Numbered from the stretch's first letter, positions 1 to 51,570 are shown. The stretch is DNA of 56,194 nt from Terrimicrobiaceae bacterium (GCA_036525175.1 DATDAX010000076.1:1-56194), one strand, 5' to 3'. Program-made: numbers and translations. Notes: a model not told the origin generated them from the sequence alone.

Positions 1-141
1 AAATTCGAGCAACTCCAGCAGGTGGACCGCGCCGCCTGGCGCCAGGAAGTCATTGACCACGAAGAACTCTTCCTCGATCTCCACGACCACCTGCCAAAGG
101 AGCTCGTTTACGAACGATCGCTGTTAATCTGCCGGCTTTAA
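1..141 (+). CDS. pckG: 3' end of GTP-dependent phosphoenolpyruvate carboxykinase (partial, continues upstream of the window)
   Basis: Frame 1 is open from base 1 to TAA at 139-141. It reads KFEQLQQVDRAAWRQEVIDHEELFLDLHDHLPKELVYERSLLICRL*, which fits my recollection of the GTP-PEPCK C-terminal tail (W..E....F......LP.EL..E..L..RL). It is absent from the ORF track because it has no start codon in the window. Confidence 0.55.
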   Translation, partial: KFEQLQQVDRAAWRQEVIDHEELFLDLHDHLPKELVYERSLLICRL

Positions 142-469
142 GCGCTTTCTCCGGCGATTTTGTTGGGCTTTGCGGAGCGTGCCTGCCGCCGCAGACGTCA
201 AATATCTTCCTTTTCGTGTTCGGAGACGCGGCGGTTTCCCGCTCGGACCTCTCCCGGTCGAAGGTCCCCCGACCGGCGAGAGGTTCCCTGCGGGAGATTC
301 CCGAGGTGCGGGCGGCTTCACTCCTGCGTTCCGCCGCCATGCACCATCCCATCTAACGATGGAAACCCGTTTTCGCCACGTACCGCGGGGATTGCATCCG
401 GGTCAGGGCCGAGGCCTAGGTCGCACTAAAAGAGATTGCCGCCAGTTTGGAAGCAGGATATCTACGCCG

Positions 470-650
470 CGGCACGATTCGCGTCGAGGCCGGCCCGCGC
501 AAAGAAGGATTGCGAGTGATTCTTGAAATCCATTTTGGCCCGCGCGACGGCGGCGTCGGCGCTGGTCGCTCCAGTGCCCCGGAGCCGCAATCTTTCGTCG
601 GCGGCTGGAGAAGCGAGGGGTTTACCACACTCGCACAAGCGTCCCACTAA
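470..650 (+). pseudogene. Relic of a histidine-kinase 3' end (paralogous to the 3' end of the HK at 20113-21558)
   Basis: The translation GTIRVEAGPRKEGLRVILEI...APEPQSFVGG parallels the HK C-terminus GTIRAEAGPRKGGLRVVFEL...PAEPQSFAGR. The DNA 470-601 aligns by eye with the reverse complement of about 20125-20262. No kinase body lies upstream. Confidence 0.5.
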
Positions 651-920
651 AGGGCCGATCGCACACTGAGCTCGCCGGCGTGAATTTCGGCTTTGGGTTC
701 TGACGCTGCGGCGTCGAGGCCGGGAATGAGCCTGAACGCTTTTTCATCCTGCGTTTAGCTTCGTTTCAGCATCGGGAGCGACGTTTCCACTGTCGTTAAT
801 CCCCTCAAATCAGCAACCTCTCGAAGTAATGATCGAACAATCCTCCCCGGCTGGCTCTATCAACGCCCTCCACCCTCTTGTTTGATATGATCGCGTGCTA
901 ACCATAGGGTAGCGGAAGCA

Positions 921-25499: not shown

Positions 25500-26624
25500 A
25501 TGAGTATCCAAAGAAAACTCGACAAAGCACCCCCCTACAAGCTGCTCGCCTGCGACGGCGGCGGAATCCGCGGAACCATCTCCATCGAAATCCTCGCGAA
25601 AATCGAAGACGAGCTCCGTGCCAGCAGCGGAAAGCCCAGTCTCGTGCTCGCCGATTACTTCGATTATGTGGCTGGTACAAGCACCGGCGCTATTATTGCC
25701 ACGCTGGTGGCGCTCGGTTACGACGTCGCCACGATCCGCGACTTTTACCTAAAAAGCGGCGCGGAAATGTTCGAGCCTGCCGCACTTTGGGAACGTCTGC
25801 ACACCAAGTTCGACTCGGACAATCTGTCCCGGATGCTTAAGGAAATCATCGGCGAGCACGAAACCCTCGGCTCGGACAAATTCAAGACACTCCTGATGGT
25901 CGTGCTGCGCAACGCCACCACCGATTCGCCATGGCCGATTTCCAACAATCCCAAGGCCAAATACAACGACCGGGAGACGCGCCGCGACGATAGCAACCTC
26001 AACCTGCCGCTTTGGCAACTCGTCCGCGCTAGCACCGCCGCGCCGACGTTCTTCCCGCCGGAAACAATCCAGGTCGGCACCCAACGCTTCGTCTTCGTCG
26101 ATGGCGGCGTGACGATGTATAACGACCCTGCGTTCCAGCTCTTCCTCATGGCAACGACGGAGCCTTACAAGCTCTGCTGGGAAACGGGCCGCGAAAAGAT
26201 GCTCCTCGTGTCGGTCGGGACCGGTGCGAGCGCCGACGCAAATTCCAAGCTCACGCCGCGAGAGATGAGCCTGCTTTACAATGCGAGCCACATCCCCTCG
26301 GCGCTAATGGCCGCAGCGCTTCACGAGCAGGATTTCTTGTGTCGCACGTTTGGTGACTGCCTGGCCGGTGGCCCGCTGGACCGCGAAATCGGCGACATGA
26401 TCGGCAGAGGCATCCCGGGGCTCGAAAAGCTTTTCACTTACGTTCGCTACAACGCGGATCTTTCGCGCGGAGGGCTCGATGCACTCGGCCTGCAGGGCAT
26501 CAATCCTGAGCATGTCCAACAGATGGATTCTGTGGATCACATCGGCGAGATGCAGCAGGTCGGCCGCGCCGCCGCCGAGCGTTACGTCCATACAAAACTC
26601 CACTTCGCCGCCTTCCCAGCCTAA
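25500..26624 (+). CDS. Patatin-like phospholipase
   Basis: Has the oxyanion motif CDGGGIRG, the nucleophile elbow GTSTG (Ser codon 25680-25682) and the catalytic-dyad Asp in FVDGGVTMYNDP. Confidence 0.9.
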   Translation: MSIQRKLDKAPPYKLLACDGGGIRGTISIEILAKIEDELRASSGKPSLVLADYFDYVAGTSTGAIIATLVALGYDVATIRDFYLKSGAEMFEPAALWERLHTKFDSDNLSRMLKEIIGEHETLGSDKFKTLLMVVLRNATTDSPWPISNNPKAKYNDRETRRDDSNLNLPLWQLVRASTAAPTFFPPETIQVGTQRFVFVDGGVTMYNDPAFQLFLMATTEPYKLCWETGREKMLLVSVGTGASADANSKLTPREMSLLYNASHIPSALMAAALHEQDFLCRTFGDCLAGGPLDREIGDMIGRGIPGLEKLFTYVRYNADLSRGGLDALGLQGINPEHVQQMDSVDHIGEMQQVGRAAAERYVHTKLHFAAFPA

Positions 26625-26631
26625 CTTAGCC

Positions 26632-28707
26632 ATGCCTGCCACAAACACCCTCTGCCGCGCCTTCGTCGTGATGCCATTCGGAAAAAAGGAGGTACCGAAG
26701 GATCTGTTGAAACAGCCAAAGGTCGAAGTGACCTCCGAAGCACTCGCCTTGCAGGAGGCGCTGAAAGTCGATTTCGATGTCCTCTACGAGAAGCTCCTCG
26801 GGCCCGCGCTGCGCGAGGCGGGGTGCGAGCCTTTCCGCGCGACGGACGAGCAAGGCGCGGGCGACATCCGCAAGGACATGTTCTTCGAGCTGGTAACCGC
26901 CGACCTGGTGCTCGCCGACATTTCAATCCTCAATGCCAACGTTTTCTACGAGTTGGGCGTGCGGCATGCCGTCGGTCCACGCGGCGTGATCAGCGTGCAC
27001 GGCGGCTGGGCGAGCCGACCTTTCGACGTGGCACCGGATCGCACCTTCAACTACGACGGGCAACTCTTCATCGCCGACCTCACTCGCGACGCAGCGTGGG
27101 AAGTGCGTGTCTCGAAAGAAGTGAGCAAACTCGGTGCTGTCTTGCGCAGCGCCATTGCCAATGATGAACAGGAGATCGGCAGCCCCGTTTACAGCCTTGT
27201 GGAAGGACTAAAACCCGTCGACTGGAGCGGGATCAGCACTGCGCGGGCAAAATATTTCCAGAGTATCTCCGAAGAATGGCGTCAGCGTGTGAAGGTGGCA
27301 CGCAAAGAGCGCCATCCGGGCGACATCCTCACGCTCGCCGGCGACATGCCTACCCGGCTGCACCGTAAGCAACTGCTCTGGCAATGCGCTCGCGCGCTCG
27401 TCGAGATCCATCGCTTCGAGGCGGCGCGCGGCGTCCTCGATGATCTTCTGGAAATGGACCGCGACAACTTCGAGACGAAATCTCTGTTAGCACTGGTTGA
27501 TAACCGGACCGGCCGTTCAGCCCATGCGGAGGAAAGCCTCGATGCATTCGTCAACGCGCGGCCCGGCGACGGTGAAGCGCAAGGAATGCTCGGGCGCGTT
27601 TACAAAGACCTCTGGCGGGTCGCATGGAAGGACCAACCGACCCTGGAAGAGCGGCAGACGGCGGCGATGGAAAACGCCGTTATCGCCGCCAAAGCGATCG
27701 CCACCTATGAGCGCGCGCTGCGCCATAACTTGAGCAACTACTACAACGGCATCAACGTCGTTACCCTCCAGTCGCTGCTCGATTTCCTTGCCGAAAAGAC
27801 TGGCACGTTTCCCGCCGAGACTGGCATCACCGATCTGCCTGAACTGGTCTCCGTGGTTAGCGTCGCCACGCGGCAAGCGCTGAAAAATCCGGGCGAAGTC
27901 GCCTGGGCCGCGCCGACGCTTGGTGAGCTTGAACTCGTCCGCGGCAACGGTCCCGAATCCTTGCGACGCTATCAACAAGCGGCCAATGCGCCCGGTGTTC
28001 CATATTTCGAGATTGATTCCATGCTCGGTCAGCTCCGGCTGTTCGAGGGGCTTGGCTTCCGGGCAGAGGCTGTGGCACCGGTGATCAAGCTGCTCGAGAA
28101 GAAGCTCGCCCAGCTGGGAAATCCCCTGCCCACCTTCGGCAAAGTGGTCGTATGCAGCGGACACATGATCGACGCGCCCAGCCGCGAGAATCCCCGCTTC
28201 CCAACAAGCAAGGAAAGGCCCGTGCGCGAGAGGATCGCGGCGCAGCTGGCCGCTTGGGGCGTCGGCAAGGGCGACCTCGCCATCTGCGGCGGAGCATGCG
28301 GCAGCGATATCCTCTTCGCCGAGGAATGCCAGCGCCTCGGCGCTTCCGTACGCCTCCTGCTCGCCCTGCCGCGCGCTGAGTTCGTGGCAAAGTCGATCGC
28401 CTTTGCCGGTTACGAGTGGGTACAGCGGTTCGATCAACTTGCCAAAACCTGCGAAGTGGCCGAGCAGACCAGCCGGCTCGGGAATCCACCTGCGGGACTT
28501 GATGTCTTCAGCCGCTGCAATCTCTGGATCCTCAACTCGGCGCGTGTCGAGATTGGGCCCGCCAGTCAGTTATATTCCGTTCTTATCTGGGACGAAAAGC
28601 CGACCGGCGACGGCCCCGGCGGGACCTCCGACTTCGCGACGCGCGTCCGGGAACTCGGCGGAGTCGTTGAGGTCATCAACCCGATGAAATTTCCGGAGCC
28701 GGATTGA
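26632..28707 (+). CDS. Three-domain protein: N-terminal nucleoside-2-deoxyribosyltransferase/TIR-like Rossmann domain, central TPR (DUF4071/ASK1-like) region, C-terminal SLOG/LOG-like Rossmann domain
   Basis: The N-terminus has FVVMPFGKK...DLVLADISILNANVFYELGVRHA. The middle has GMLGRVYKDLW and NYYNGINVVTL. The C-terminus has VVVCSGHMID...LAICGGACGSDILFAEEC...VRLLLALP. The ATG at 26632 lies 7 nt after the patatin stop. Domain names are from memory, not a search. Confidence 0.6.
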   Translation: MPATNTLCRAFVVMPFGKKEVPKDLLKQPKVEVTSEALALQEALKVDFDVLYEKLLGPALREAGCEPFRATDEQGAGDIRKDMFFELVTADLVLADISILNANVFYELGVRHAVGPRGVISVHGGWASRPFDVAPDRTFNYDGQLFIADLTRDAAWEVRVSKEVSKLGAVLRSAIANDEQEIGSPVYSLVEGLKPVDWSGISTARAKYFQSISEEWRQRVKVARKERHPGDILTLAGDMPTRLHRKQLLWQCARALVEIHRFEAARGVLDDLLEMDRDNFETKSLLALVDNRTGRSAHAEESLDAFVNARPGDGEAQGMLGRVYKDLWRVAWKDQPTLEERQTAAMENAVIAAKAIATYERALRHNLSNYYNGINVVTLQSLLDFLAEKTGTFPAETGITDLPELVSVVSVATRQALKNPGEVAWAAPTLGELELVRGNGPESLRRYQQAANAPGVPYFEIDSMLGQLRLFEGLGFRAEAVAPVIKLLEKKLAQLGNPLPTFGKVVVCSGHMIDAPSRENPRFPTSKERPVRERIAAQLAAWGVGKGDLAICGGACGSDILFAEECQRLGASVRLLLALPRAEFVAKSIAFAGYEWVQRFDQLAKTCEVAEQTSRLGNPPAGLDVFSRCNLWILNSARVEIGPASQLYSVLIWDEKPTGDGPGGTSDFATRVRELGGVVEVINPMKFPEPD

Positions 28708-28786
28708 TAGGGACACGGCGTCAAAGGTCTTCAGAGGGCGATGTATTATGTGTTCCATCGATCGACGCGATTGACTCGCAAACCAA

Positions 28787-31597
28787 TCAATCGTCCGATA
28801 CGCCTTCGCCGGGAGGAAGCTCTGCGAATGTGCGCCGGTAGGGGAGTGTTCCGAAGAAGCGTTTCCATTCGGCGAGTGAGAGATTTCGATTCGCCCGGCG
28901 GGCCGCCCGCCGCTGCCACGTGTCGAGACTGGCATCAAGCAAGAAAAGCCCGGGAGGATTATTGAGACCCACAGCCAGCGTTTTCCCATCCGGGCTGAAG
29001 GCGATCGCATTTACCGTGAAATATTCTCCTTCGGTGAAGGCTGAGACACCCAAGGGTTGACGGCTTTCGGCATCGACGAAGCGCAATGTGCCCCCGAATC
29101 CCGCCATCACGAGAGTCTTGCCGTCGGGGCTAAACGAGAGTCCGGAGACCCTGTTGACAAAGCTCCGGGGTAGTTCGCCACGAGGGCGATGGCTTGCAAC
29201 GTCCCAGAGCAACACGCCGCCTGCGTCATCGCCGGTGCATAGCACCTTACCCGTGGGATCGAAGGTAGCGCTCCAGACAGCGGCGAGATGCCCCGGAAGT
29301 GGAGAGCCCTGAGGCCGGCGGGTGCGCGGATCCCAGAGTCGGACGTTTTTATCATCCCCACCGGAGGCCAGCACCGTTCCGTCGGAGCTGAAGGCGACGC
29401 AGTAAACGCCGCCTTTATGCCCCTCCAATGATTCACCGAGGGGTGACCGCGCTTGTGCGTCCCAGAAACGCAGGGTGCCGTCGCTGCCACCAGAGGCGAG
29501 GAGCTTGCCATCCGGGCTGGAAGCGATGCTCCAGATGTAACTCCCGGCCAGGTGGCCCACGAGAGGTGCGCCGATCGGCTGGCGCGTCACCGCATTCCAA
29601 AGCCGTACCGTGCCGTCCTGGCAGCCCATCGCGAGCACCTTGCTCGCTCCAACGAAAGCGAGGCTTTGGACTCCATCCCAATACTCGAGTGTTCCGAGCT
29701 TTTTGCGCGCCCTCGCATCGAAAATCTCAACGTGTTCGCCGGAGACGGCGAGCAAGGTCCCATCTTTGCTAAAGGCCAAGTGGGAAGTCCGCCCACCAAT
29801 TTGTTCACCCAAGAGAGGGGCAGGTTCGACTTCCCAAAGCCGAATGGTCCCGTCTTTGGCTCCGACGGCGATCTGCCGGCTATCCGGGCTCACCGTGAAG
29901 CTGGCCATCTCACCGACGAAGATCGGCTGCCCGATGAAGGTGGCATGCTCCCAATCGTAGCGATGAATGGCTCCGTCCAGGCCTCCCCAGGAGAGGATCT
30001 TGCCATCGGCGCTAAAAGCGAGATGCAACACCCACCCGGAGCGGCCGACAATAGGCTCGCCGATGGGCTGGCGACGAACAACGTCCCAAAGACGCACAAC
30101 TCCCGTACGATCGCCGGACGCAATGACTTTCCCATCAGGACTGAAGGCGAGCTGCGTGATCCATTCAGTATGCCCAGTAAGTTTCCCAAGTGGTTGGCGC
30201 GTGGCGATTTCCCAGAGCCAAAGTTCCTCGCGAACGTCGAGCGCCAGCAACTTGCCATCCCGACTAAAAGCGACACACGCGGGCTCGCCCGCCCCGAACT
30301 GCGGCTGCCAGGCCGCCCCTAGCCCCAGGATCGGCTCGCCAATGCGTTCTCCAGTAGCGGCATTGCGCAGGGAAAGGTCTACCACATTGCTGACAGCGAG
30401 GGATTTGCTGTCAGGGCTGAAGACGACGGAGGTGACCGTGCCGCCGAAGCGAACGGCCTCCCCACGGAGCCTGCGCGCCGAAACATCCCAGATGCAAAAG
30501 TCGCCGTCCTGAGTGCCCGCAGCCACGCTCGCACCATCCGGACTGAAGCTGAGGCAGCGGACTTCGTTTGAACTGCCCGAATGGCGTTGCTCGAAAACGT
30601 GAAGTGGTGCAGCGACTTGACGCCGTTGCTTCCAGTCCCATAAGCGCACGCTTCCATCGAAACCGCCAGAGACCAGAGTGGACCCATCGGGGCTGAACGC
30701 AATTGAGGTCACCGGCCCCCGATGCCCGTGCAGGAAGGTGGAGAGTCCCGGCTCCATTTGGAGCGCGGAAAGGAGCGTATTCCGCGCCTCGGCGGTATCG
30801 GCAGCACGACACGCCTCGACGCCGAGGAGCAGTGCGAGCGGAAGCTGATCGCGTAGATAGGAGAGGCCAAAGCCAGCCAGCCGTCCGGCGCCTGCGATTC
30901 GCGCCTGCGACTGGGCCTCGTTGCGCTGCGACCAGGCGAGCACCGCCAAAATCAGCGAGACGACCAGGCCCGCCGACACCGCTCCGAGAGTGATCCGCTG
31001 TCTATTAGCAGCAGCTTTGCGGCTGGCGATAATATATCCGGTCTGAAGCGCAGTAGGCTGCCGTTCCTTGTCCGTGCCGGCCTGCGCGAGCCATTGCTCG
31101 GCATCGCGCAGATCGTCTCCACGAAGGACAAAGCTGTTGTTTTTGCCTTTGGCTTCCCATTCGATCGCGCGCGTGAGCAGACGGGTGTGCGCGTGAACCC
31201 ATGCGAGGTCGATATCGAGCGCAGTGATCAGCGTCTCGATCGCCTTGGCGAAATCGTCGGTCTCGCGGCAAAAAATCCAGTTCAGCTTCGCGAGCGCCTC
31301 CGGCACATCAGCGGCATTCACGTCGCGAGCGACGACCGGCACCATCCGCTTGTTGTGCGCCGCGGCGTGCGCGATCTCACGCCCGCAGACAACTGACGCG
31401 ATCGAATCCGGCGTCAGCACAAAAACAAATGTATCAGCCGCTTCGATCGCGCCGTAAATCGCTCTCATGAACTCCTCGGTGGGCCGGATGCCTTCCCAGT
31501 CCACCCATGCCTCGCGACCGCGACGTTTCAGCGCCTCATCCAACTGTTGGACGAACTCCTTGTCCTTGCGCGAGTAGGAAATGAAAACGTCAGCCAC
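28787..31597 (-). CDS. TIR domain - single TM helix - WD40 beta-propeller protein (paralogue A)
   Basis: GTG start. The TIR domain has DVFISYSRKD...FVFVLTPDS..S..CGREI (Glu74 codon 31376-31378). A hydrophobic helix ITLGAVSAGLVVSLILAVLAW lies at about 30932-30994. More than 12 canonical WD40 units follow (GH.G.V.S.AFSPDG..L.SG..DG..RLWD). Confidence 0.9.
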   Translation of the reverse strand: MADVFISYSRKDKEFVQQLDEALKRRGREAWVDWEGIRPTEEFMRAIYGAIEAADTFVFVLTPDSIASVVCGREIAHAAAHNKRMVPVVARDVNAADVPEALAKLNWIFCRETDDFAKAIETLITALDIDLAWVHAHTRLLTRAIEWEAKGKNNSFVLRGDDLRDAEQWLAQAGTDKERQPTALQTGYIIASRKAAANRQRITLGAVSAGLVVSLILAVLAWSQRNEAQSQARIAGAGRLAGFGLSYLRDQLPLALLLGVEACRAADTAEARNTLLSALQMEPGLSTFLHGHRGPVTSIAFSPDGSTLVSGGFDGSVRLWDWKQRRQVAAPLHVFEQRHSGSSNEVRCLSFSPDGASVAAGTQDGDFCIWDVSARRLRGEAVRFGGTVTSVVFSPDSKSLAVSNVVDLSLRNAATGERIGEPILGLGAAWQPQFGAGEPACVAFSRDGKLLALDVREELWLWEIATRQPLGKLTGHTEWITQLAFSPDGKVIASGDRTGVVRLWDVVRRQPIGEPIVGRSGWVLHLAFSADGKILSWGGLDGAIHRYDWEHATFIGQPIFVGEMASFTVSPDSRQIAVGAKDGTIRLWEVEPAPLLGEQIGGRTSHLAFSKDGTLLAVSGEHVEIFDARARKKLGTLEYWDGVQSLAFVGASKVLAMGCQDGTVRLWNAVTRQPIGAPLVGHLAGSYIWSIASSPDGKLLASGGSDGTLRFWDAQARSPLGESLEGHKGGVYCVAFSSDGTVLASGGDDKNVRLWDPRTRRPQGSPLPGHLAAVWSATFDPTGKVLCTGDDAGGVLLWDVASHRPRGELPRSFVNRVSGLSFSPDGKTLVMAGFGGTLRFVDAESRQPLGVSAFTEGEYFTVNAIAFSPDGKTLAVGLNNPPGLFLLDASLDTWQRRAARRANRNLSLAEWKRFFGTLPYRRTFAELPPGEGVSDD

Positions 31598-31760
31598 GGC
31601 ACTGGATGCTGTTTGCCACTAAGTTCCGTCGTTGGCAGCCCAGAGCATTTGGACACGCCTCAGTGCGCGCCCTACCAGCGCCAGTCCGAAAGTCCCCGCC
31701 TTTCATGGCGGCGATTACATGCCCCATTTTCGCTGAGCGCAACGGCAAATCTCGCCGCCG
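30930..31760. repeat. Duplicated segment, copy A (5' leader + TIR + linker + TM of the TIR genes)
   Basis: Aligns by eye along its length with 35093-35925 at high nucleotide identity, including about 165 nt upstream of the GTG start. Confidence 0.85.
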
Positions 31761-32011
31761 TGCGGACCGGTTAGGAGCCGTCGTGGCGGTTGGAAAGGTC
31801 TGTCTCAGCCCGAGAACTTCGGGATCGTGCTGCTCGATATGGGACATTTAACGGAAGAGTCGACCTTTCTTGATTTCTACAAGAGGAAGGCATCAAAGGC
31901 GGGTCAGGAGTAAACAGAGACTCTACCGAAGTATTCGCTCCTGCTGTGCAGTAATTGCTCGCCATTGCTCTTGCTGATTAAAGACGTTGTTCCCACGAGA
32001 ATTCGTTATTT

Positions 32012-32692
32012 ATGTTCAGCCACGCTTCCAAACTTCCTGCAGTCCTGATCGCGTGCTGTGTGGCCGTCACCCTCGGTGCAGCCGGCGCGTGTGATGGCCC
32101 GCGCAAGGTGCGCGAGGCGACCGTCGCGAAGATCAAGGCATTCATCAACGACCAGCAAATGACAGTGCTGACCTTCGCCGGCTATTCAGGGGCAGAGTAT
32201 GAGGACCCGCAGACGATGTTGGCGCACGCTTCACGCGTCCTCGACGGGCTGGACCCGGCGAAAACATTAATCAATATCGGTGCCACGGAGGTGGGAATCG
32301 GCGCCGTTTACGAGCTCTCAAAGCGAAAGGGATTCACAACCATGGGCATCGTCTCCACCCTTGCCCGCGATGAGCGTGTTCCACTCTCGACGTGCGTCGA
32401 TTATGTGTTCTACGTCAAAGACAGTCACTGGGGCGGAAAGGTTCCCGGAACCGATCATCTTTCGCCCACCTCGGCCGCACTGGTCGAGTGCAGCACGTCT
32501 TTCGTTGCCATTGGCGGAGGCGAAGCCGCCAGGGACGAGATGCTCGCAGCACGTAAGGCTGGCAAGCCTGTTGCCTTCATTCCTGCCGACATGAATCACC
32601 GGATCGCTCGAGAGAAGGCACAGAAAAAAGGCCAGCCCGAACCGACCGACTTTCGAGGTGCCGCACATGGTTCGCTCGCTAAAGGCATCTAG
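32012..32692 (+). CDS. Exported (probable lipoprotein) SLOG/LOG-like Rossmann-fold protein
   Basis: The N-terminus MFSHASKLPAVLIACCVAVTLGAAGAC looks like a signal or lipoprotein leader. The body has LTFAGYSGAEY..., GATEVGIGAVYELSKRKGFTTMGIVS and FVAIGGGEAARDEMLAARKAGKPVAFI, reminiscent of the LOG/TIGR00725 layout. The function call is tentative. Confidence 0.5.
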   Translation: MFSHASKLPAVLIACCVAVTLGAAGACDGPRKVREATVAKIKAFINDQQMTVLTFAGYSGAEYEDPQTMLAHASRVLDGLDPAKTLINIGATEVGIGAVYELSKRKGFTTMGIVSTLARDERVPLSTCVDYVFYVKDSHWGGKVPGTDHLSPTSAALVECSTSFVAIGGGEAARDEMLAARKAGKPVAFIPADMNHRIAREKAQKKGQPEPTDFRGAAHGSLAKGI

Positions 32693-32907
32693 CACTGGCC
32701 CAACTGGCTCGAGCCGACCCGCACGAAGCCCGAGATGAAGTGTTATGCTTCGAGTGAATGCTGCCGTGCAATCGCCGGAACGCGGCTCGCCCCTTGGGGC
32801 CTCGGCAAAGGCGATCTCGCTAGCTCGGCAACCGCGGCGGAGCGTGCCGCAGCGCCGCCGTCCTGTCCGGACTTCGGAACGGAGGATAAATGCCACCGTG
32901 ACAGGGA

Positions 32908-35760
32908 TTATTTCTGCAGGCGGGTCTTTTGCGGCATCGTACCTGGACCGTAACGACTCCATTCGTCAGATGTCAGATCGCTCGCCACTTTGGCAGAGGT
33001 CTCGCGGAGGACACCATCAAGAGTGATTGGATGAAGGGTGGGCTCGGGAAAACCGTTCTGCCACCTGTAAGTCAGAATATACCTTCCATCCAGGCTGAAA
33101 CCCGCGAAACGATCACCCCGCGCGACTGGAACTTTGAAGTTTACTCCGAGCGTGTTCGCGTCATAGACGTAGATGACGCTGGGGAATGCGGCAGCTAGGA
33201 GCGTTCCGTCCGGACTAAAACTCAAGAAGTCGTCACGGTCGCCCTCCATGAATCCGCCAAAACCCAGCGGTTCCGATCGGACCGTTGGATTCTTTGCGCC
33301 GATTTTCCAAATCCCAATCATGTTCTCCTGGAGCACCGCGCATCGCCCTTTGTCAGGACTAATCGCGAAGTTCGATCCTTCTGGAATGTCTGACACGGAT
33401 TCGGTCCTCCAATCGAACAGCACGGACTTAAGCGGGACCCCATCCTGGATTTGCTCGGCGATGACGAAGTTGGACCCGGACAGGAACCACAATCGGTTGA
33501 AAGGCTTTACGTTGGGGATCAGCTGCGGGGGTGCCTTATGATCCAGTCGATAGATCTGGGACGAAACCAGCACCCGATTTTCGTCCGGCCCAAACGCCAG
33601 GGGCCCGCCGCCGGGAATCGTGATGTTTCGTTTGGTGGCCATTTCCGTTATTACCCATCCCTTGCGTTGTAAAAGCCGCGCTACAAAGCGGCCGCTCGGT
33701 GACACCACAAGCGCTCCGGCGCCTTCCCCTTTTTCCTCAGCCTGCCACAGGCGTGTTCCACCCGCATCATAGACATTCATCGAGCCGTCTGCTCCATCCA
33801 CCACAACGACACGCGCGTCCACTGGCAGGACCGCAAACTTGCTGGGCAACGTCCAACGGCTCGCCGGGGTAATGGGGACCCATCGTTCCGGGGCGAGCGA
33901 CACAACCTGAATCTTGGCGGGAAGCCGATCCCTGGTCTGGGCTGGGACACGCGAGCTCACGGCCAGGAATCGACCATCGGCACTGAAAGCGGCGCCATTC
34001 ACCGACTGCCTTTTATCGAGTGTGAAGTGGAACACCAAGGCGCTCCGAGTCAGGTCGAAGACCGAAAAGGTCTCCGGGTTTACCGCGGAGTATCCCGCAA
34101 CATACCGGCCAGTTGGACTCACGGCAGGGAGAAGCTGAAAGGTCTCGCCTTGCTTCGATGCGAACGGCAGGTCGAACGAATCCCCACCGGATGTCTTGCG
34201 TAGCTGAGCGCCCCTGACGTACACATCGCCGCCCGCGATGACGCGAGAAGGGTTGGACAAGCTCTCGACAGGCGTGGTGTTAAGCAGGCTGCCATCAGCA
34301 GCGCTTAGAATCGAATGCTGACGAGAACTGATGGCGATCACACACTTGCCATCTCCGCTGAACAAGGCTTCCTCATAATTATCGCTCGCCGGATGCCGAA
34401 CACGCCAGCGAACCGAGCCGTCCGCGACGTTGAAAGCTGTTAAGCCTTCATCGGTTTTCGCGACGACCGTCGCAGCGTCTGGACTGAGCACGACGACGCC
34501 CGCCTCCGACGGGAACATGATGCGCGACCGAACCGTGCCGGCTGTCGGATCGACCGTCCAGATCCCAGCTCGCGAAACCACGAGCAAGTTCCCCTTCAAA
34601 TCGAACGCTGCGATATCGAGATCCTCCGGAAGCGGGACGATTTGTTTGTTTCCGCTCTCGATGTCTAGAACTTCGATCGCAGATCCACCTTTTTGGTAGA
34701 CGACGACACGGTCGCCGGTTGGGCTCATAGCGAGTGTGAAGGCGGATTGATCCGCCTGGACCTCGTGGAGCTGTCGGAGATCGGGCGCTGAAAACACATG
34801 GACATGGCGATCACCGCAGAGCGTAACCAGTCTCCGTGCATCTGGAGTGAACACGATGGCAACTGCGACAGAATCCGTTGCGACATCCGTCAAAATCCTC
34901 GGCATCTGACTGACGGCTGTGTGCCAGGCTGTGTATCCAGCTTCAGTCCACGTCTCTCTGAGCGATTCAGCCGCAAGCAGGCTTCCAATTCGGAGGCCCC
35001 GACTGGGCTCCATGTCTGCGGCCTTGACAGCCTGTCCGGCCAGGAAGCGCGCCGCGGACATCTTGCCTTGCTTGATAGCATCCTGACGCGCAAACCAAGC
35101 GACTACTGATAAAATGACAGCAACGACCAGGCCGAAGCTGAGTGCTCCGAGCGTGATCAACTGCCTTTTAGCGGCGGCCTTGCGGCTGGCGATGATGTAT
35201 TCGGTCTGAAGCGCCGTGGGCTGACGTTCCTTGTCCGTGCCGGCCTCTGCGAGCCATTGCTCGGCATCACGCAGATCGTCTCCGCGAAGGACAAAGCTGT
35301 TGTTTTTGGCTTTGGCCTCCCACTCGACGGCACGCGTGAGGAGGCGCGTGTGAGCCCGGACCCAGTCGATGTCCGTGTCGAGGGCGCTGATCAGCGTCTC
35401 GGTCGCCATTTGAAAATCGTCTGATTCACGAAAAAAGATCCAGTTCAGCTTCGCCAGCGCTTCGGGGACGGCCCCGGCGTTCACCTCGCGTGCAACGATA
35501 GGAATCATCCGTTTGTTCTGCGCCAGGGCATGCGCGATTTCCTTCATGCAAACGACCGATGAGACGGAGTCAGGAGAGAGCACAAAGAGGAACGTGTCTG
35601 TTCCTTCGATCGCGCTGTAAATCGCTCTCATGAACTCCTCGGTCGGCAGAATGCCTTCCCAGTCCACCCAGGCCTCGCGACCGCGGCGTTTCAGCGCCTC
35701 ATCCAACCGTTGGACGAACTCCTTGTCCTTGCGCGAGTAGGAAATGAAAACGTCAGCCAC
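32908..35760 (-). CDS. TIR domain - single TM helix - divergent beta-propeller protein (paralogue B)
   Basis: The first ~220 aa are near-identical to paralogue A (Glu74 codon 35539-35541). The C-terminal ~720 aa have only degenerate propeller blades (FSGDGKCVIA, FSADGRFLAVSS, FSPDGTLLAAA, FSLDGRYILT) and do not align with A. Confidence 0.85.
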   Translation of the reverse strand: MADVFISYSRKDKEFVQRLDEALKRRGREAWVDWEGILPTEEFMRAIYSAIEGTDTFLFVLSPDSVSSVVCMKEIAHALAQNKRMIPIVAREVNAGAVPEALAKLNWIFFRESDDFQMATETLISALDTDIDWVRAHTRLLTRAVEWEAKAKNNSFVLRGDDLRDAEQWLAEAGTDKERQPTALQTEYIIASRKAAAKRQLITLGALSFGLVVAVILSVVAWFARQDAIKQGKMSAARFLAGQAVKAADMEPSRGLRIGSLLAAESLRETWTEAGYTAWHTAVSQMPRILTDVATDSVAVAIVFTPDARRLVTLCGDRHVHVFSAPDLRQLHEVQADQSAFTLAMSPTGDRVVVYQKGGSAIEVLDIESGNKQIVPLPEDLDIAAFDLKGNLLVVSRAGIWTVDPTAGTVRSRIMFPSEAGVVVLSPDAATVVAKTDEGLTAFNVADGSVRWRVRHPASDNYEEALFSGDGKCVIAISSRQHSILSAADGSLLNTTPVESLSNPSRVIAGGDVYVRGAQLRKTSGGDSFDLPFASKQGETFQLLPAVSPTGRYVAGYSAVNPETFSVFDLTRSALVFHFTLDKRQSVNGAAFSADGRFLAVSSRVPAQTRDRLPAKIQVVSLAPERWVPITPASRWTLPSKFAVLPVDARVVVVDGADGSMNVYDAGGTRLWQAEEKGEGAGALVVSPSGRFVARLLQRKGWVITEMATKRNITIPGGGPLAFGPDENRVLVSSQIYRLDHKAPPQLIPNVKPFNRLWFLSGSNFVIAEQIQDGVPLKSVLFDWRTESVSDIPEGSNFAISPDKGRCAVLQENMIGIWKIGAKNPTVRSEPLGFGGFMEGDRDDFLSFSPDGTLLAAAFPSVIYVYDANTLGVNFKVPVARGDRFAGFSLDGRYILTYRWQNGFPEPTLHPITLDGVLRETSAKVASDLTSDEWSRYGPGTMPQKTRLQK

Positions 35761-35925
35761 GGCACCGGATGCTGTTTGCCTCTAAGTGCCGTCGTTGGCA
35801 GCCCAGAGCATTTGGACATGCCTCAGTGCCCACGCTACCGGTGCCAGTCTGAAAGTCCCCCCTTGCATGGCAGCGATTACACGTCCCCTTTGCACTGAGC
35901 GCAACAAATTACGTAGGAATAGGCA
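35093..35925. repeat. Duplicated segment, copy B
   Basis: See copy A at 30930-31760. Confidence 0.85.
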
Positions 35926-36164: not shown

Positions 36165-36956
36165 TTACGCAGCAGCTCCCCGAATGAGGCGTTCCAACCT
36201 TGCCGTGAGTTTCTCAAAATGTGTTCCAGACCAGTAAATCCGACCGCAGCCGCAGCACCGGCGGAAATTATCGTAAAAGCGCAAAGTGAGCGGTTCGCCA
36301 GAAAGCCGGGTGAGCACTTCTGACTTCGGCACGGATAGCAGCAATGAGTTGCAGCGGAGACATCGCTGATAGGGCGCAAGGTCGCCGGACTCGGGAGCGA
36401 GGCCGAAACGTCGGAGCACCTCGCGCGCTTGTTCCTCCGCATCCACGCTGCGAGGGCTGTAACCGTGCCGGACGATGGAATGCATCAGCAGGCGGCGATC
36501 GCGAGTCAGCAGCGCGCGATCTTCCGCGACCATGATTTCGAGTAACCGACGATCGTCGGCGTCGCGCTCATAGGCAGTATCAATCCCAAGCAGCCGTAGG
36601 TTGCGCGCGAGTTTGCCGAGGTGACCATCGGCCACGAACCGACACCAATGCTTCGTCTGCAACCTCGGTGCCCGCGGCAGAACCTCTGCTGGTGCAGGAA
36701 CGGCGAAGACTTCCACCCGCCCAGGAGCCTGCACCTGCCAGGCAAAGGTGACCGCTGTCCGCTCGCCGGTGCAAAGATCCGTCGCAACGATCAGATCCAC
36801 CTCCGGGTGCGGCACCCCACACGCCTCAATCACATCCTTGATCGCCGTCTTTTCCCACAACGCACGCAAGAGGCAATTCTCGCTGCGCAAGCCCCGCACC
36901 CCACGACGTAGGAAAAACCCGAGTTCAGCGGAAAAGCTGAGTTCCACCTCAAACAT
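36165..36956 (-). CDS. Mut7-C RNase domain protein (PIN-like nuclease with N-terminal ubiquitin-like domain and C-terminal zinc ribbon)
   Basis: Contains RFVADGHLGKLARNLRLLGIDT...LLTRDRRLL and a terminal C.RCN...CCGCGRIYW.G.H, which matches the PF01927-type layout as I recall it. Confidence 0.75.
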   Translation of the reverse strand: MFEVELSFSAELGFFLRRGVRGLRSENCLLRALWEKTAIKDVIEACGVPHPEVDLIVATDLCTGERTAVTFAWQVQAPGRVEVFAVPAPAEVLPRAPRLQTKHWCRFVADGHLGKLARNLRLLGIDTAYERDADDRRLLEIMVAEDRALLTRDRRLLMHSIVRHGYSPRSVDAEEQAREVLRRFGLAPESGDLAPYQRCLRCNSLLLSVPKSEVLTRLSGEPLTLRFYDNFRRCCGCGRIYWSGTHFEKLTARLERLIRGAAA

Positions 36957-51500: not shown

Positions 51501-51570
51501 CCTGGTGAAGAAATCGCACAATGAAGTGCGTCTCCTAAGCTTTTACTGCTCCGGCAACGATAATATATGA
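48523..51570 (+). CDS. LamG (concanavalin-A-like lectin) domain protein with C-terminal fibre-like G-x-[VL]-G-I-G-T repeats
   Basis: The N-terminus has FDG....I.IP......GDVTVEAWV...WYHLAGV..G..GSLYLHD...GRIAHIRVYNGARSQAEIEQ (Laminin_G_3 pattern). The C-terminal half has GHVGIGTPTPKSTLSV, GTLGIGTPQPQAKLEI, GNVGIGTTDPKAALQI and GNVGIGTPLPEKRLEV. Confidence 0.82.
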   Translation: MSTELVLHLELNGFEVIDKEEIVKDVSRKHHVGTVHGRVDIVADDTFGACASFDGNASNHISIPSDNSLKNSGDVTVEAWVYVSQEASGYFRVVGRGGYPQDYSLWCVQGGGWLFQRYASIPPGSPPPPTASAAEWLNWTMNPQVVNASCQMDSPTRALNTWYHLAGVIEGTKGSLYLHDLQGKCIGYKEVHDMPSGPAFDTDGPLTIGYGPGLDFPAHTGRIAHIRVYNGARSQAEIEQGIARDRLALVPFRKSHPIDFHLYDDDDQAVLYISDDPAGHNLHLELHNTSAQVIQLHNGHGAVASEANHHFAVRFRPGTLSDSTLKALVNPQERGKILQQTEQWEVYFPPTLPAANEAAALYLLYKGPAKTIQPDERRTLTLQRMSAAPGSGARGTQVELLPHQLTAAGGDATPITGSRTQYVHITNQRGHKNIPLHVWFEGGNTVVNDGVSSTPLTLCIGNASADRDITLDATSQFLISFDVGDGADAAWTMTPHESEVHVRYEQTELPSKLAGQGISRQWSLKFPLGKVLPKRGSAGTGPLKITIEGIRTSPQASGHANLYVQYDHIPGYQDGRFILTVEKSPLVYDKKGNVAIGKPIQKVDIPKVDVAGTVVADRLSVSRDNAHRGGLFFAGAGDFNHALYNNHSNLDGEGTWDGAKWNTFKGLNIRVGNRNDKPSTLRSALLIDATGHVGIGTPTPKSTLSVAGGLAVGATYAETNAAPANSLIVQGTLGIGTPQPQAKLEIAGEATGNTPLLIVRKGAANYLTISNDGNVGIGTTDPKAALQIGNFESEDTYLKVAAGRLHRAGIQFECGQHNEYFIEFESGGPFRPGLQFTKHRPDYPNVPRVDFFLDGETGNVGIGTPLPEKRLEVLAGELRVTARHNNPTADIGAFYDPRKARGIGIGYNQIASIGSDLSQDILMVPKGQGIVRIKGPLEVNGTFRVNGLPIFDYGKRMNQDEQKKYARMLKEPTYQPGTFILFVRDDKSDDICCLVKKSHNEVRLLSFYCSGNDNI

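What the first reader, a model, noticed from the sequence alone, without database searches (positions are those of the whole stretch)
30930..35925. Duplicated TIR head plus leader with completely different sensor halves (cassette-like diversification)
About 830 bp are shared at high nucleotide identity between 30930-31760 and 35093-35925. The shared unit comprises about 165 nt of 5' leader, the GTG start, the TIR domain, the linker and the TM helix. Immediately after the TM helix the two proteins stop aligning. Paralogue A continues as a regular WD40 array and B as a degenerate, unrelated propeller. A conserved signalling head with divergent receptor modules is the hallmark of immune-receptor families. 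The sharp identity boundary suggests recent duplication or gene conversion limited to the head. The leader is conserved at nucleotide level but not as a reading frame, which points to a shared regulatory RNA or promoter.
Basis: seen in the sequence. Interest (0 to 1): 0.7.

Follow-up and report, generated by a model that had tools for sequence, protein, structure and literature searches.

The report
Swappable TIR heads on membrane propeller receptors
Two neighbouring genes encode membrane proteins with a near-identical inner NAD-cleaving "TIR" head and very different outer propeller sensors; comparison with relatives shows heads and sensors have been recombined like cassettes, as in immune-receptor families.

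Summary
The shared block is real: window 30931-31743 matches 35094-35905 at 82% identity over 815 nt on the minus strand. It covers about 146 nt of leader, a GTG start, the TIR domain, a 75-aa linker and one TM helix.

- The tails are not unrelated. Both are tandem WD40-type propellers, colinear at 25% identity (hhalign 98%). B's tail has conserved orthologues under purifying selection.
- The head as a whole is not recently duplicated. Codons 53-140 are saturated at silent sites, and A and B are no closer there than heads from other species. Only the leader plus codons 1-52 look recently homogenised.
- The leader is not a conserved RNA element. It is absent from 79 related loci, has no Rfam hit and no significant fold.

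The cassette idea does hold.
- B-tail orthologues elsewhere carry a different TIR head, joined at the outer end of the TM helix.
- One close relative (L081) is an A-head/B-tail recombinant (p=7e-26).
- Some relatives carry 3-7 heads in tandem.

The family spans several phyla. The predicted topology is Toll-like: TIR inside the cell, propellers outside. The function has not been tested.

The parts
28787..31597 (-). Gene A: TIR - linker - TM - tandem canonical WD40 propellers (936 aa, GTG start)
   Evidence: ORF. Pfam TIR_2 90.4 bits at aa 4-124; WD40 292 bits, 8 or more repeats at aa ~290-880. Independent Logan contigs L098 and L099 reproduce 26189-31575 and 26322-31517 at 99.8-99.9% identity.
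32908..35760 (-). Gene B: TIR - linker - TM - tandem divergent WD40-type propellers (950 aa, GTG start)
   Evidence: ORF. Pfam TIR_2 93.1 bits; PQQ_2 42 bits (above cutoff); WD40 below cutoff. AF2 model shows two all-beta propeller regions, aa 288-525 (pLDDT 80-90) and ~550-905. Foldseek top hits are double WD40 propellers. Syntenic orthologue in L080 at 90% nt identity.
30931..31743 (-). Shared block, copy A (leader + TIR + linker + TM)
   Evidence: BLASTN 82.2% over 815 columns against 35094-35905.
35094..35905 (-). Shared block, copy B
31442..31743 (-). Recently homogenised 5' tract in A: leader (31598-31743) plus codons 1-52
   Evidence: Codons 1-50: dS 0.13, 95% nt identity. Max-chi2 breakpoint on third positions at codon 52, p=0.0002 (8% mismatch before, 47% after). 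Proximal leader -50..-1 is 94% identical A-B, against 62-68% for every other pair including the B/L080 orthologues.
35605..35905 (-). Recently homogenised 5' tract in B: leader (35761-35905) plus codons 1-52
   Evidence: As above.
31226..31588 (-). TIR domain of A (aa 4-124), with putative catalytic Glu74 in the motif S..vC..E
   Evidence: Pfam. E74 is invariant in 64 of 64 family members. The catalytic role is inferred from knowledge of TIR NADases.
35392..35751 (-). TIR domain of B (aa 4-123)
30998..31222 (-). Conserved 75-aa helical juxtamembrane linker of A (aa 126-200; motif HTRLL.RA.EW...LLRG.dL..Ae.WL). It has no Pfam family and always follows this type of TIR.
   Evidence: No Pfam hit. 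4,803 50%-identity clusters at E<=1e-3, always following a TIR, in 1 to 7 TIR+linker units per protein. The crossover in L081 lies here.
35161..35385 (-). Linker of B (aa 126-200)
30938..30994 (-). TM helix of A (aa ~202-220); the head/tail module junction lies at its outer end
   Evidence: KD-19 peak of 2.48. B-vs-A identity collapses over aa 205-225 while B-vs-L082/L083 identity rises over aa 210-235.
35101..35157 (-). TM helix of B (aa ~202-220)
   Evidence: KD-19 peak of 2.55; junction. BLASTN similarity of B to L082 and L083 starts at window 35088 and 35102.
26629..28707 (+). Candidate partner: 691-aa TPR-S protein, convergent with A (N-terminal alpha/beta domain, TPR-S solenoid, C-terminal alpha/beta domain)
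   Evidence: Pfam TPR-S PF20308. Homologue within 5 kb of a family gene in 14 of 83 loci across phyla, and convergent immediately downstream of B-type genes in L082 and L083. More than 2,700 homologues at 50-83% identity. AF2 mean pLDDT 83.
25500..26624 (+). CapV-like patatin phospholipase, possible effector
   Evidence: Pfam Patatin. NCBIfam CBASS_lipase E=2.4e-33 (below cutoff); PADLOC CBASS phospholipase effector E=5.9e-43. Syntenic (76% aa) directly upstream of the TIR gene in L002 and L008.

Best explanation
What A and B are. A and B are old paralogues of a large, multi-phylum family of single-pass membrane proteins. Each has four parts:
- an N-terminal cytoplasmic TIR domain of the NADase type, with the putative catalytic Glu invariant;
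- a conserved 75-aa helical juxtamembrane linker;
- one TM helix;
- two extracytoplasmic WD40-type beta-propellers.

How they evolve. The head (TIR + linker + TM) and the tail (propellers) evolve as separable modules.
- Heads are held at about 70-84% identity across a whole bacterial order by purifying selection.
- Because heads stay so similar, homologous recombination or gene conversion repeatedly swaps them between family members.
- Tails belong to many deeply diverged lineages (about 25% identity), and each lineage is itself under purifying selection.

What the shared block records. The 815-nt block shared by A and B has three sources:
- family-wide conservation of the head;
- an older replacement of the B lineage's original, different TIR head by a head of this family, joined at the outer end of the TM helix;
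- a recent homogenisation of about 300 bp within this genome, covering the leader and codons 1-52.
The leader similarity is a hitch-hiker of that last event. It is not a conserved riboregulator.

Function (inferred, not shown). The propellers bind an extracytoplasmic ligand, for example a phage or envelope-derived molecule. Ligand-driven clustering brings the TIR heads together. The TIR heads then cleave NAD+ or produce an NAD-derived signal. That signal may act on the frequently linked TPR-S protein and the CapV-like patatin.
For: Shown here:
- Block and mosaic. BLASTN 82.2% over 815 nt. dS is 0.13 in codons 1-50, 1.68 in codons 51-125 and 0.73 in codons 126-200; head dN/dS is 0.14.
- Old paralogy. 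In codons 51-140, A-B is 0.71 nt / 0.44 third-position identity, below A against heads of other species (up to 0.78 / 0.59). In codons 4-50, A-B is 0.95 / 0.91 against a best outside value of 0.82 / 0.66.
- Recent 5' tract. Max-chi2 breakpoint at codon 52, p=0.0002. The proximal leader is 94% identical A-B, against 62-68% for all other pairs including the B/L080 orthologues.
- Head replacement. L082/L083 (P0123, P0124) have tails 70-75% identical to B's but TIR heads only 26% identical. Identity switches at aa ~210-235, mirroring the A-B drop at aa 205-225. All distant B-tail orthologues (40-75% tail identity) carry that other head; only B, P0121 and P0122 carry the A-family head.
- Recombinant relative. 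In L081, nt 156-520 has 58 A-like and 19 B-like informative sites, and nt 591-900 has 10 A-like and 132 B-like (Fisher p=7e-26). L080 is B-like throughout.
- Tails are homologous and conserved. hhalign 98.1%, E=9e-14, 560 columns. Foldseek matches to double WD40 propellers. B tail dN/dS is 0.18-0.23.
- Family-wide modularity. Tail identity is about 26-32% whatever the head identity. At the syntenic patatin/TPR-S locus, heads are 79-82% identical but tails 26-32% and of different lengths. Proteins with 3-7 tandem TIR+linker units exist. 5' tracts are also shared between paralogues in other genomes (L047, 91% over -66..447).
- Topology. All 64 full-length members have one TM peak. K+R is higher on the N-flank in 58 members and never on the C-flank.
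- TIR competence. TIR_2 scores 90-93 bits, and E74 is invariant in 64/64.
- Context. TPR-S homologue in 14 of 83 loci; CapV-like patatin; BREX genes next to L083.
Against: - All functional steps (ligand sensing, NADase or signalling activity, the partner link) are inferred. No PADLOC or NCBIfam defence model is met at its threshold.
- The TPR-S partner is absent from 69 of 83 loci, and the patatin from all but two, so neither is obligatory.
- Codons 1-52 are 90-96% identical among A, B, L080 and L081 alike. For the coding part of the 5' tract, nucleotide-level constraint or an older conversion therefore cannot be separated from a recent event. The case for recent conversion rests mainly on the leader.
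- The donor of B's head was not the present gene A, because the core TIR is saturated. The source paralogue is unidentified.
- No close orthologue of A's tail was found, so A's own history could not be cross-checked.
- The AF2 model of B has only moderate confidence (mean pLDDT 64).
- Topology rests on hydropathy and the positive-inside rule, not on a dedicated predictor or an experiment.
Confidence: 0.72

Rival explanations
1. A recent duplication or gene conversion covered the whole head (leader to TM), and the conserved leader is a shared regulatory RNA or promoter.
For: The block ends near the TM helix in both copies and includes 146 nt of non-coding DNA at 88% identity. A short motif, GCAAACAG.A.CC, just 5' of the start codon is invariant in A, B, L080 and L081, so a small translation-initiation or promoter-proximal element is possible.
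Against: Silent sites are saturated in codons 51-125 (dS 1.68), and A-B identity there is lower than A against other species. No leader match exists in 79 related loci, where similarity starts at the start codon. There is no Rfam hit. Fold z-scores are -1.25 and -1.31 with different MFE structures, and there is no sigma-70 consensus. The leader carries a 58-nt deletion in the 90%-identical orthologue L080 and is ~60-68% identical in L081.
Confidence: 0.08
2. Plain tandem whole-gene duplication followed by fast divergence of the propellers, with the head kept by purifying selection alone. No module exchange occurred.
For: The tails are colinear homologues of nearly equal length, including the C-terminal tail motif. 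Head dN/dS is 0.14. The high identity of codons 141-190 is family-wide (A-B 0.89 against a best outside value of 0.87).
Against: The B-tail lineage carries a different TIR head in all of its more distant members. L081 is a statistically clear A/B recombinant. B's tail evolves slowly between orthologues (dN/dS ~0.2), so rapid divergence is not its mode. The 94% identical proximal leader cannot be explained by protein-level selection.
Confidence: 0.12
3. Assembly artefact. The shared 5' tract or leader arose by mis-joining or copy collapse in a metagenome-assembled contig.
For: The independent short-read contigs L098 and L099 stop inside the shared tract, at 31575 and 31517. A's leader and its link to the 32012-32692 gene are therefore not independently confirmed. 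Many database hits to the head are truncated fragments.
Against: The two copies differ at 17 positions plus one indel in the leader and at 7 positions in codons 1-50, so they are not a collapsed repeat. A mis-join within the tract would swap flanks, not create similarity. The body of B and its flanks are reproduced in the syntenic L080, and the body of A in L098 and L099.
Confidence: 0.03
4. The family is not immune-related. It would be a general transmembrane signalling or adhesion family (for example envelope or cell-cell sensing), with the TIR acting as a scaffold or a metabolic NAD hydrolase.
For: The window is ordinary chromosome (aconitase, TctA, TPP enzyme, two-component system, glpX). 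No known defence system is recognised at threshold. Tails are under purifying selection between orthologues. The family is enriched in soil, filamentous or complex bacteria.
Against: Several features are typical of conflict systems: multi-copy paralogy with head/tail shuffling; a catalytic-type Glu invariant in 64/64; linkage to a CapV-like phospholipase and a TPR-S 'sensor' protein; and BREX genes adjacent in L083.
Confidence: 0.25

Closest known systems
Thoeris ThsB and other bacterial TIR-domain defence proteins (TIR-STING, TIR-SAVED, SPARTA TIR-APAZ, TIR-STAND/Avs)
   Same: N-terminal TIR of the TIR_2 / ThsB_TIR type with a conserved catalytic-type Glu. Weak hits to ThsB, SAVED-TIR and Thoeris type III ThcB4 models. 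The expected chemistry is NAD+ cleavage or NAD-derived signalling.
   Different: No ThsA (SIR2 or Macro with SLOG), SAVED, STING, Argonaute or STAND NTPase partner or fusion. All defence-model hits are partial and below family cutoffs. The TIR is tethered to a TM helix and to about 700 aa of predicted extracytoplasmic propeller, whereas the characterised bacterial TIR sensors I know of are cytoplasmic (my knowledge).
Animal Toll-like receptors and IL-1 receptors
   Same: Single-pass receptor logic: an extracellular repeat-built ligand-binding domain, one TM helix and a cytoplasmic TIR. They also form multigene families with a conserved TIR and a diversified ectodomain.
   Different: Opposite polarity (type II: TIR at the N-terminus). 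The ectodomain is a WD40 propeller, not LRR or Ig. The TIR keeps the enzymatic Glu, whereas TLR TIRs are scaffolds. There is no evidence of common descent of the architecture.
Fungal and bacterial NLR-like STAND proteins with WD40 sensors (HET-E/NWD family, Apaf-1) and plant TNL clusters
   Same: An N-terminal effector domain plus a C-terminal repeat sensor. Paralogue families in which effector-encoding 5' parts are homogenised or shuffled while sensors differ. Apaf-1's double WD40 propeller is among the best structural matches to B's tail.
   Different: No NACHT or NB-ARC NTPase domain. A TM helix is present. There are no DNA-level tandem repeats or repeat instability in the WD40 arrays here, unlike HET-E/NWD.
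Receptor Ser/Thr kinases of the PknD type (cytoplasmic enzyme - TM - extracellular beta-propeller)
   Same: The same type II topology and the same kind of ectodomain, giving the logic of a one-component transmembrane sensor (from my knowledge of M. tuberculosis PknD).
   Different: The output domain is a TIR rather than a kinase. The ectodomain is a tandem WD40-type propeller rather than a six-bladed NHL propeller.
CBASS with a CapV patatin effector
   Same: The neighbouring patatin (25500-26624) resembles cGAMP-activated CapV (NCBIfam E=2.4e-33; PADLOC E=5.9e-43).
   Different: It scores below the NCBIfam cutoff (115.8 against 200 bits). No CD-NTase was found among the cluster genes scanned. 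It is linked to the TIR gene in only 2 of 83 other loci.

Membership tests
TIR domain (Pfam PF13676 TIR_2), NADase-competent type | Profile match above the curated cutoff | tested here: met
   A scores 90.4 bits and B 93.1 bits against a cutoff of 28.
TIR domain (Pfam PF13676 TIR_2), NADase-competent type | Conserved catalytic glutamate | tested here: met
   E74, in the motif S..vC..E, is invariant in 64/64 family heads. Its assignment as the catalytic residue rests on knowledge of other TIR NADases.
TIR domain (Pfam PF13676 TIR_2), NADase-competent type | NAD+ cleavage or signal production | not testable with these tools
   Needs biochemistry.
WD40 beta-propeller | WD40 repeat profile above cutoff (gene A) | tested here: met
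   PF00400 scores 292 bits with 8 stretches.
WD40 beta-propeller | WD40-type propeller in gene B | tested here: met
   Pfam WD40 alone is below cutoff (21 against 27 bits). However, hhalign to A's tail gives 98.1%, the homologue search reaches canonical WD40 proteins at 1e-13 to 1e-6, and Foldseek gives E=6e-27 to 2YMU and Apaf-1.
Thoeris | ThsB-type TIR protein | tested here: inconclusive
   PF08937 scores 20.1 bits against a cutoff of 21.2 for B. PADLOC ThsB hits are partial (E=2e-9 to 1e-3). NCBIfam ThcB4 scores 36.8 against a cutoff of 220.
Thoeris | Adjacent ThsA (SIR2 or Macro/TM effector with a SLOG sensor) | tested here: not met
   No neighbour gives a ThsA, SIR2 or Macro hit. The 226-aa neighbour has only sub-threshold SLOG hits (E=0.011 and 0.015).
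CBASS | CD-NTase cyclase next to the effector | tested here: not met
   No CD-NTase hit in the cluster genes scanned with Pfam, PADLOC and NCBIfam. The patatin scores below the NCBIfam CBASS_lipase cutoff.
STAND / NLR-like receptors | Central NACHT or NB-ARC P-loop NTPase | tested here: not met
   No NTPase family among the Pfam hits of A or B. Residues 125-285 are linker, TM and helical stalk.
Toll-like receptor family | LRR ectodomain, type I topology, C-terminal TIR | tested here: not met
   The ectodomain is a WD40 propeller, the TIR is N-terminal and the predicted orientation is N-in. The resemblance is in logic only.
Structured cis-regulatory leader RNA (riboswitch, attenuator or similar) | Match to a known RNA family, or a significantly stable conserved fold | tested here: not met
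   No Rfam hit at E<=1. z-scores are -1.25 and -1.31, and the two copies give different structures.
Structured cis-regulatory leader RNA (riboswitch, attenuator or similar) | Conservation and covariation in related genomes | tested here: not met
   No leader match in 79 loci. In L080 it carries a deletion and a diverged proximal part, and in L081 it is ~60-68% identical. Too few homologous leaders exist for a covariation test.
Gene-conversion tract between paralogues | A run of silent-site identity far above the rest of the alignment, with a statistically supported breakpoint | tested here: met
   Max-chi2 p=0.0002 at codon 52. dS is 0.13 before the breakpoint and 1.68 after it.
Gene-conversion tract between paralogues | Paralogues in one genome closer to each other than orthologues are, within the tract | tested here: met
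   Proximal leader: A-B 0.94 against B-L080 0.63. This is not resolved for codons 1-52, where all four genes are 0.90-0.96 identical.

The most novel reading that the evidence does not exclude
These genes would represent a widespread, uncharacterised class of bacterial 'Toll-like' receptors. An extracytoplasmic double-propeller ectodomain detects a phage, competitor or envelope-derived ligand outside the cytoplasm. It switches on a cytoplasmic TIR NADase or signal synthase. Downstream targets would be the TPR-S protein and, in some genomes, a CapV-like phospholipase used without a CD-NTase. The repertoire would be built by cassette-like recombination of a conserved TIR+linker+TM head onto diverse propeller lineages, including genes with 3-7 heads in tandem.
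Probability: 0.25. Interest if true: 0.8.

Novelty: new variant of a known kind. Interest (0 to 1): 0.55.

Why it matters
Almost all characterised bacterial immune sensors, including every studied TIR system I know of, detect invaders inside the cytoplasm. This is a large family that spans Verrucomicrobiota, Chloroflexota, Cyanobacteria, Acidobacteriota, Actinomycetota and Burkholderiales. Its cytoplasmic catalytic-type TIR is wired through one TM helix to an outside propeller. If it is an immune or recognition family, it would extend TIR signalling to surveillance of the cell exterior and give a bacterial analogue of Toll-like receptor logic.

Independently of function, the locus documents modular evolution in bacteria: head replacement at a fixed junction, an inter-paralogue recombinant in a sister strain, short conversion tracts, and multi-head arrays. 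This is the pattern known from plant, animal and fungal immune-receptor clusters.

There is also a practical point. The conserved heads break short-read assemblies, so this family is likely to be under-represented and truncated in metagenome catalogues.

Tried and rejected
- a global alignment with free end gaps gave a degenerate result. I replaced it with BLASTN plus a fixed-register profile.
- Rfam, folding and promoter scans of the leader found nothing significant.
- Tandem Repeats Finder on both genes found no DNA-level repeat arrays, so a HET-E-like WD-repeat instability mechanism is rejected.
- a metagenome scan for orthologues of A's tail returned only generic WD40 relatives (25-44% identity). 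A's lineage could not be cross-checked.
- an exact look-up of protein A is not on record.
- I tried to assign the N- and C-terminal alpha/beta domains of the TPR-S partner and the 226-aa neighbour by PDB sequence search, profile search and whole-chain Foldseek. The results were only TPR matches or non-significant hits (Rcl/DNPH1 at E~1; SLOG families at E~0.01). My motif-based guess (an NDT/TIR-like N-domain and a LOG/SLOG-like C-domain) therefore stays a guess and is not used as evidence.
- literature searches found no paper describing a TIR-TM-WD40 family or head swapping in bacterial TIR genes. The library is incomplete, so this is absence of evidence only.
- Considered and rejected: codons 141-190 as a second conversion tract. 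A-B identity there (0.89 / 0.76) hardly exceeds the best outside value (0.87 / 0.68), so it reflects family-wide constraint.

Full report
**1. The observation**

The window holds two minus-strand genes. A is 28787..31597 (936 aa) and B is 32908..35760 (950 aa).
- One BLASTN HSP joins 30931-31743 to 35094-35905 at 82.2% identity over 815 columns. The repeat finder sees the 300-nt core. No third copy of the head or leader exists in the window.
- Both genes start at GTG, with an in-frame TAG 24 nt upstream. About 146 nt of upstream DNA are 87.7% identical (17 mismatches and one indel), and beyond that the sequences are unrelated.
- Pfam gives TIR_2 at aa 4-124 in both proteins. A has a strong canonical WD40 array. 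B has only weak WD40-like and PQQ_2 hits.
- Each protein has a single strong hydrophobic segment at aa ~202-220.

**2. Where the description fails**

The tails are not unrelated.
- BLASTP finds weak colinear HSPs that reach the C-terminal tail motif, LSLAEWKRF in A and LTSDEWSRY in B.
- hhalign of A's tail against a profile of the B lineage gives 98.1% probability and E=9e-14. The 560 aligned columns run from just after the TM helix to the C-terminus at 25% identity.
- An AlphaFold model of B (mean pLDDT 64; first propeller 80-90) shows two all-beta propeller regions. Its best PDB matches are tandem WD40 propellers: 2YMU at E=6e-27, Apaf-1, Pwp2/Utp and COPI.

B's tail is not degenerate.
- It has full-length orthologues at 39-90% identity.
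- It evolves under purifying selection, with dN/dS of 0.18-0.23 against L080, L081 and L082.

The boundary is not razor-sharp. Amino-acid identity goes from 0.87 at aa 190 through 0.73, 0.60, 0.47 and 0.33 to <=0.3 after aa 225.

**3. The head is a mosaic, and mostly old**
- By the Nei-Gojobori method, dS is 0.13 in codons 1-50, 1.68 (saturated) in codons 51-125, 0.73 in the linker and 1.18 in the TM segment. Head dN/dS is 0.14.
- I compared A and B with 20 heads from other Verrucomicrobiota. In codons 51-140 they are less alike (0.71 nt, 0.44 third position) than A is to heads from other species (up to 0.78 / 0.59).
- In codons 4-50 they are far more alike (0.95 / 0.91, against a best outside value of 0.82 / 0.66).
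- Codons 141-190 are high in every comparison (0.89 against 0.87 outside), which indicates family-wide constraint.
- A max-chi2 test on third positions places one breakpoint at codon 52 (8% mismatch before, 47% after; permutation p=0.0002).

A and B are therefore old paralogues. Only the 5' end looks young.

**4. The leader**
- There is no Rfam match at E<=1. Folding z-scores are -1.25 and -1.31, with different MFE structures in the two copies. There is no sigma-70 consensus.
- None of the 79 related loci from species-representative genomes has any leader match. In all of them, nucleotide similarity to A begins at the start codon.
- In L080, a syntenic B orthologue at 90% nt identity, the leader has a ~58-nt deletion and a diverged proximal part. 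In L081 it is ~60-68% identical.
- In the proximal 50 nt, A-B identity is 0.94, while every other pair is 0.62-0.68, including the B/L080 orthologues.

Fast divergence between strains combined with near-identity between paralogues inside one genome is the signature of gene conversion, not of a constrained RNA. Only a short box just 5' of the start codon, GCAAACAG.A.CC, is invariant in all four genes.

One caveat applies. Codons 1-52 are 0.90-0.96 identical among A, B, L080 and L081 alike. For the coding part of the tract I cannot separate a recent event from an older one, or from constraint at the nucleotide level.

**5. Heads really are exchanged**

Head replacement in the B lineage.
- L082 and L083 encode proteins whose tails are 75% and 70% identical to B's. 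Their N-terminal TIR is a different type (26% identity to B, no HTRLL linker).
- B-vs-L082/L083 identity rises from <=0.3 to 0.5-0.9 across aa 210-235. This is the mirror image of the B-vs-A drop across aa 205-225. Both comparisons therefore place the module junction at the outer end of the TM helix. At the DNA level, similarity between B and L082 begins at window 35088.
- All more distant B-tail orthologues (P0123, P0124, P0126, P0127, P0129, P0130; tails 40-75% identical to B) carry that other head, and those heads are 69-89% identical to the P0123 head. Only B, P0121 (L080) and P0122 (L081) carry the A-family head.
- The B lineage therefore had its head replaced.

A recombinant in a sister strain.
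- L081's gene has a tail 87% identical to B's. Where A and B differ, L081 has 58 A-like and 19 B-like sites in nt 156-520, and 10 A-like and 132 B-like sites in nt 591-900 (Fisher p=7e-26).
- L080 is B-like throughout.
- The crossover lies in the conserved linker.

Counting the 5' tract in this window, that makes three separate exchange events in one small clade.

**6. The family**
- The head has 875 database hits at E<=1e-10. It has genomic loci in Ca. Udaeobacter and other Chthoniobacterales (67-82% identity), and in Chloroflexota, Cyanobacteria, Acidobacteriota, Actinomycetota, Burkholderiales and others (41-59%). The N-terminus MADVFISYSRKD is nearly universal.
- Tandem or nearby copies recur (L002, L007, L010, L017, L047, L056, L063). 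Some pairs also share a 5' tract that runs into the leader: L047 at 91% over -66..447, and L010 over -180..654.
- All 64 full-length members have one TM peak near aa 200-220. The N-flank carries more K+R than the C-flank in 58 members and never the reverse. This predicts a cytoplasmic TIR and extracytoplasmic propellers.
- Tail identity stays at about 26-32% whatever the head identity. At the syntenic patatin/TPR-S locus of the window, L002 and L008, heads are 79-82% identical. The tails there are 26-32% identical and 716, 945 and 848 aa long.
- The putative catalytic Glu74 is invariant in 64/64.
- The 75-aa linker has no Pfam family. It hits 4,803 50%-identity clusters, always behind a TIR.
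- Many large proteins carry 3-7 tandem TIR+linker units, then one TM helix, then WD40. Examples are P0261 with seven TIR_2 domains and P0299 from the cyanobacterium Scytolyngbya.
- The head is therefore a duplicable cassette, both within and between genes.

**7. Context**
- The window is a complete 56,194-bp NCBI contig that otherwise carries housekeeping genes.
- The local cluster runs: patatin (25500-26624), TPR-S protein (26629-28707, convergent with A), A, a 226-aa lipoprotein-like ORF (convergent with B), B, and a Mut7-C RNase.
- A TPR-S homologue lies within 5 kb of a family gene in 14 of 83 loci across three phyla. It is the convergent downstream neighbour of B-type genes in L082 and L083. 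In L002 and L008 the order is TPR-S, patatin, TIR gene, all on one strand.
- The TPR-S protein belongs to a very conserved ~690-aa family with more than 2,700 hits. Its terminal alpha/beta domains could not be assigned.
- The patatin is CapV-like but below NCBI's cutoff, and no CD-NTase was seen.
- L083 lies next to BrxL and PglZ.
- Two independent Logan contigs reproduce A and its partner at 99.8-99.9% identity. Both stop inside the shared 5' tract. This supports the sequence and shows that the repeat breaks assemblies.

**8. Mechanism**

Shown here: the anatomy, the predicted topology, the conservation of the catalytic-type residue, the modular evolution and the gene linkage.

Inferred: the propellers bind an extracytoplasmic ligand, clustering activates the TIR heads, and NAD+ is depleted or converted to a signal that may act on the TPR-S protein or the patatin. 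I give this functional reading roughly 40% and the evolutionary reading roughly 80-85%.

**9. Comparison and novelty**
- The genes are TIR and WD40 family members by test.
- They are not Thoeris (no ThsA), not CBASS (no CD-NTase), not STAND/NLR (no NTPase) and not TLRs (no LRR, opposite polarity).
- They resemble TLRs and PknD-type receptor kinases in logic. They resemble plant, fungal and animal immune-receptor clusters in their mode of evolution.
- I found no description of this architecture or of head swapping in it in the searchable literature. Databases already annotate members generically.

Verdict: this is a new variant of a known kind.

Noticed in passing
P0261, P0262, P0273, P0299, P0270 (database proteins; found with window 30998-31222 as query): Some proteins carry 3-7 tandem TIR+linker units, followed by one TM helix and WD40 propellers. 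P0261 (2,208 aa) has seven TIR_2 domains, and three of its head units recovered by motif are 52-70% identical to one another. P0299 is from the cyanobacterium Scytolyngbya sp. HA4215-MV1. I know of no described poly-TIR receptor architecture.
   Followed up: partly
window 26629-28707 (+); also L002, L004, L007, L008, L015, L017, L018, L032, L059, L065, L066, L079, L082, L083: A very conserved ~690-aa TPR-S protein (more than 2,700 homologues at 50-83% identity) lies beside family genes in 14 of 83 loci across phyla. Its N-terminal (aa 1-180) and C-terminal (aa 500-692) alpha/beta domains match nothing significantly. Its motifs look like NDT/TIR-like and LOG/SLOG-like signatures, but this is unproven.
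   Followed up: partly
window 25500-26624 (+); L002 3833-4945; L008 3833-4945: A CapV-like patatin phospholipase (PADLOC CBASS effector E=6e-43; NCBIfam CBASS_lipase below cutoff) with no CD-NTase seen nearby. In L002 and L008 it sits about 50 nt upstream of the TIR gene on the same strand. This hints at a TIR-driven rather than cyclase-driven phospholipase.
   Followed up: partly
window 32012-32692 (+); L080 3485-3958: A 226-aa ORF convergent with B has a lipoprotein-like signal (…LGAAGAC) and only sub-threshold SLOG hits (PF18306 E=0.011; PF18171 E=0.015). It is 92% conserved and syntenic in L080.
   Followed up: partly
window 36165-36956 (-); L080 3-383: A Mut7-C (PIN-like) RNase with an N-terminal ubiquitin-like domain lies directly upstream of B on the same strand. 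It is syntenic in L080 (94% aa).
   Followed up: no
L083 14230-18796: The B-type TIR gene and its TPR-S neighbour in L083 lie beside BREX genes (BrxL, PglZ) and an HNH gene, which marks a defence-island context.
   Followed up: no
L098 and L099 (= window 26189-31575 and 26322-31517); hit list: Independent short-read contigs end inside the A/B shared 5' tract, and most database hits to the head are 200-400-aa fragments. The conserved head probably fragments metagenome assemblies, so the family is likely undercounted.
   Followed up: partly
window 31598-31622 and 35761-35785 (-); L080 and L081 upstream regions: The motif GCAAACAG.A.CC immediately 5' of the start codon is invariant in A, B, L080 and L081 although the rest of the leader diverges. 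No Shine-Dalgarno-like sequence is evident. It may be a translation-initiation or promoter-proximal element.
   Followed up: no
window 44747-48526 (+) and 48523-51570 (+), 51767-53428 (+): A 1,259-aa ORF has no Pfam family at E<=1e-5. It overlaps by 4 nt a 1,015-aa Laminin_G_3 (concanavalin-like lectin) protein, which is followed by a class-3 lipase. This pair of large proteins is uncharacterised.
   Followed up: no
window 30925-30950 / 35088-35115; L082 ~7640-7660: The short motif AW.(Q/A)R(Q/N)(D/E)A at the outer end of the TM helix is shared by both head types (A, B and the L082 type), exactly where the head/tail junction maps. It may provide the in-frame homology for recombination.
   Followed up: no
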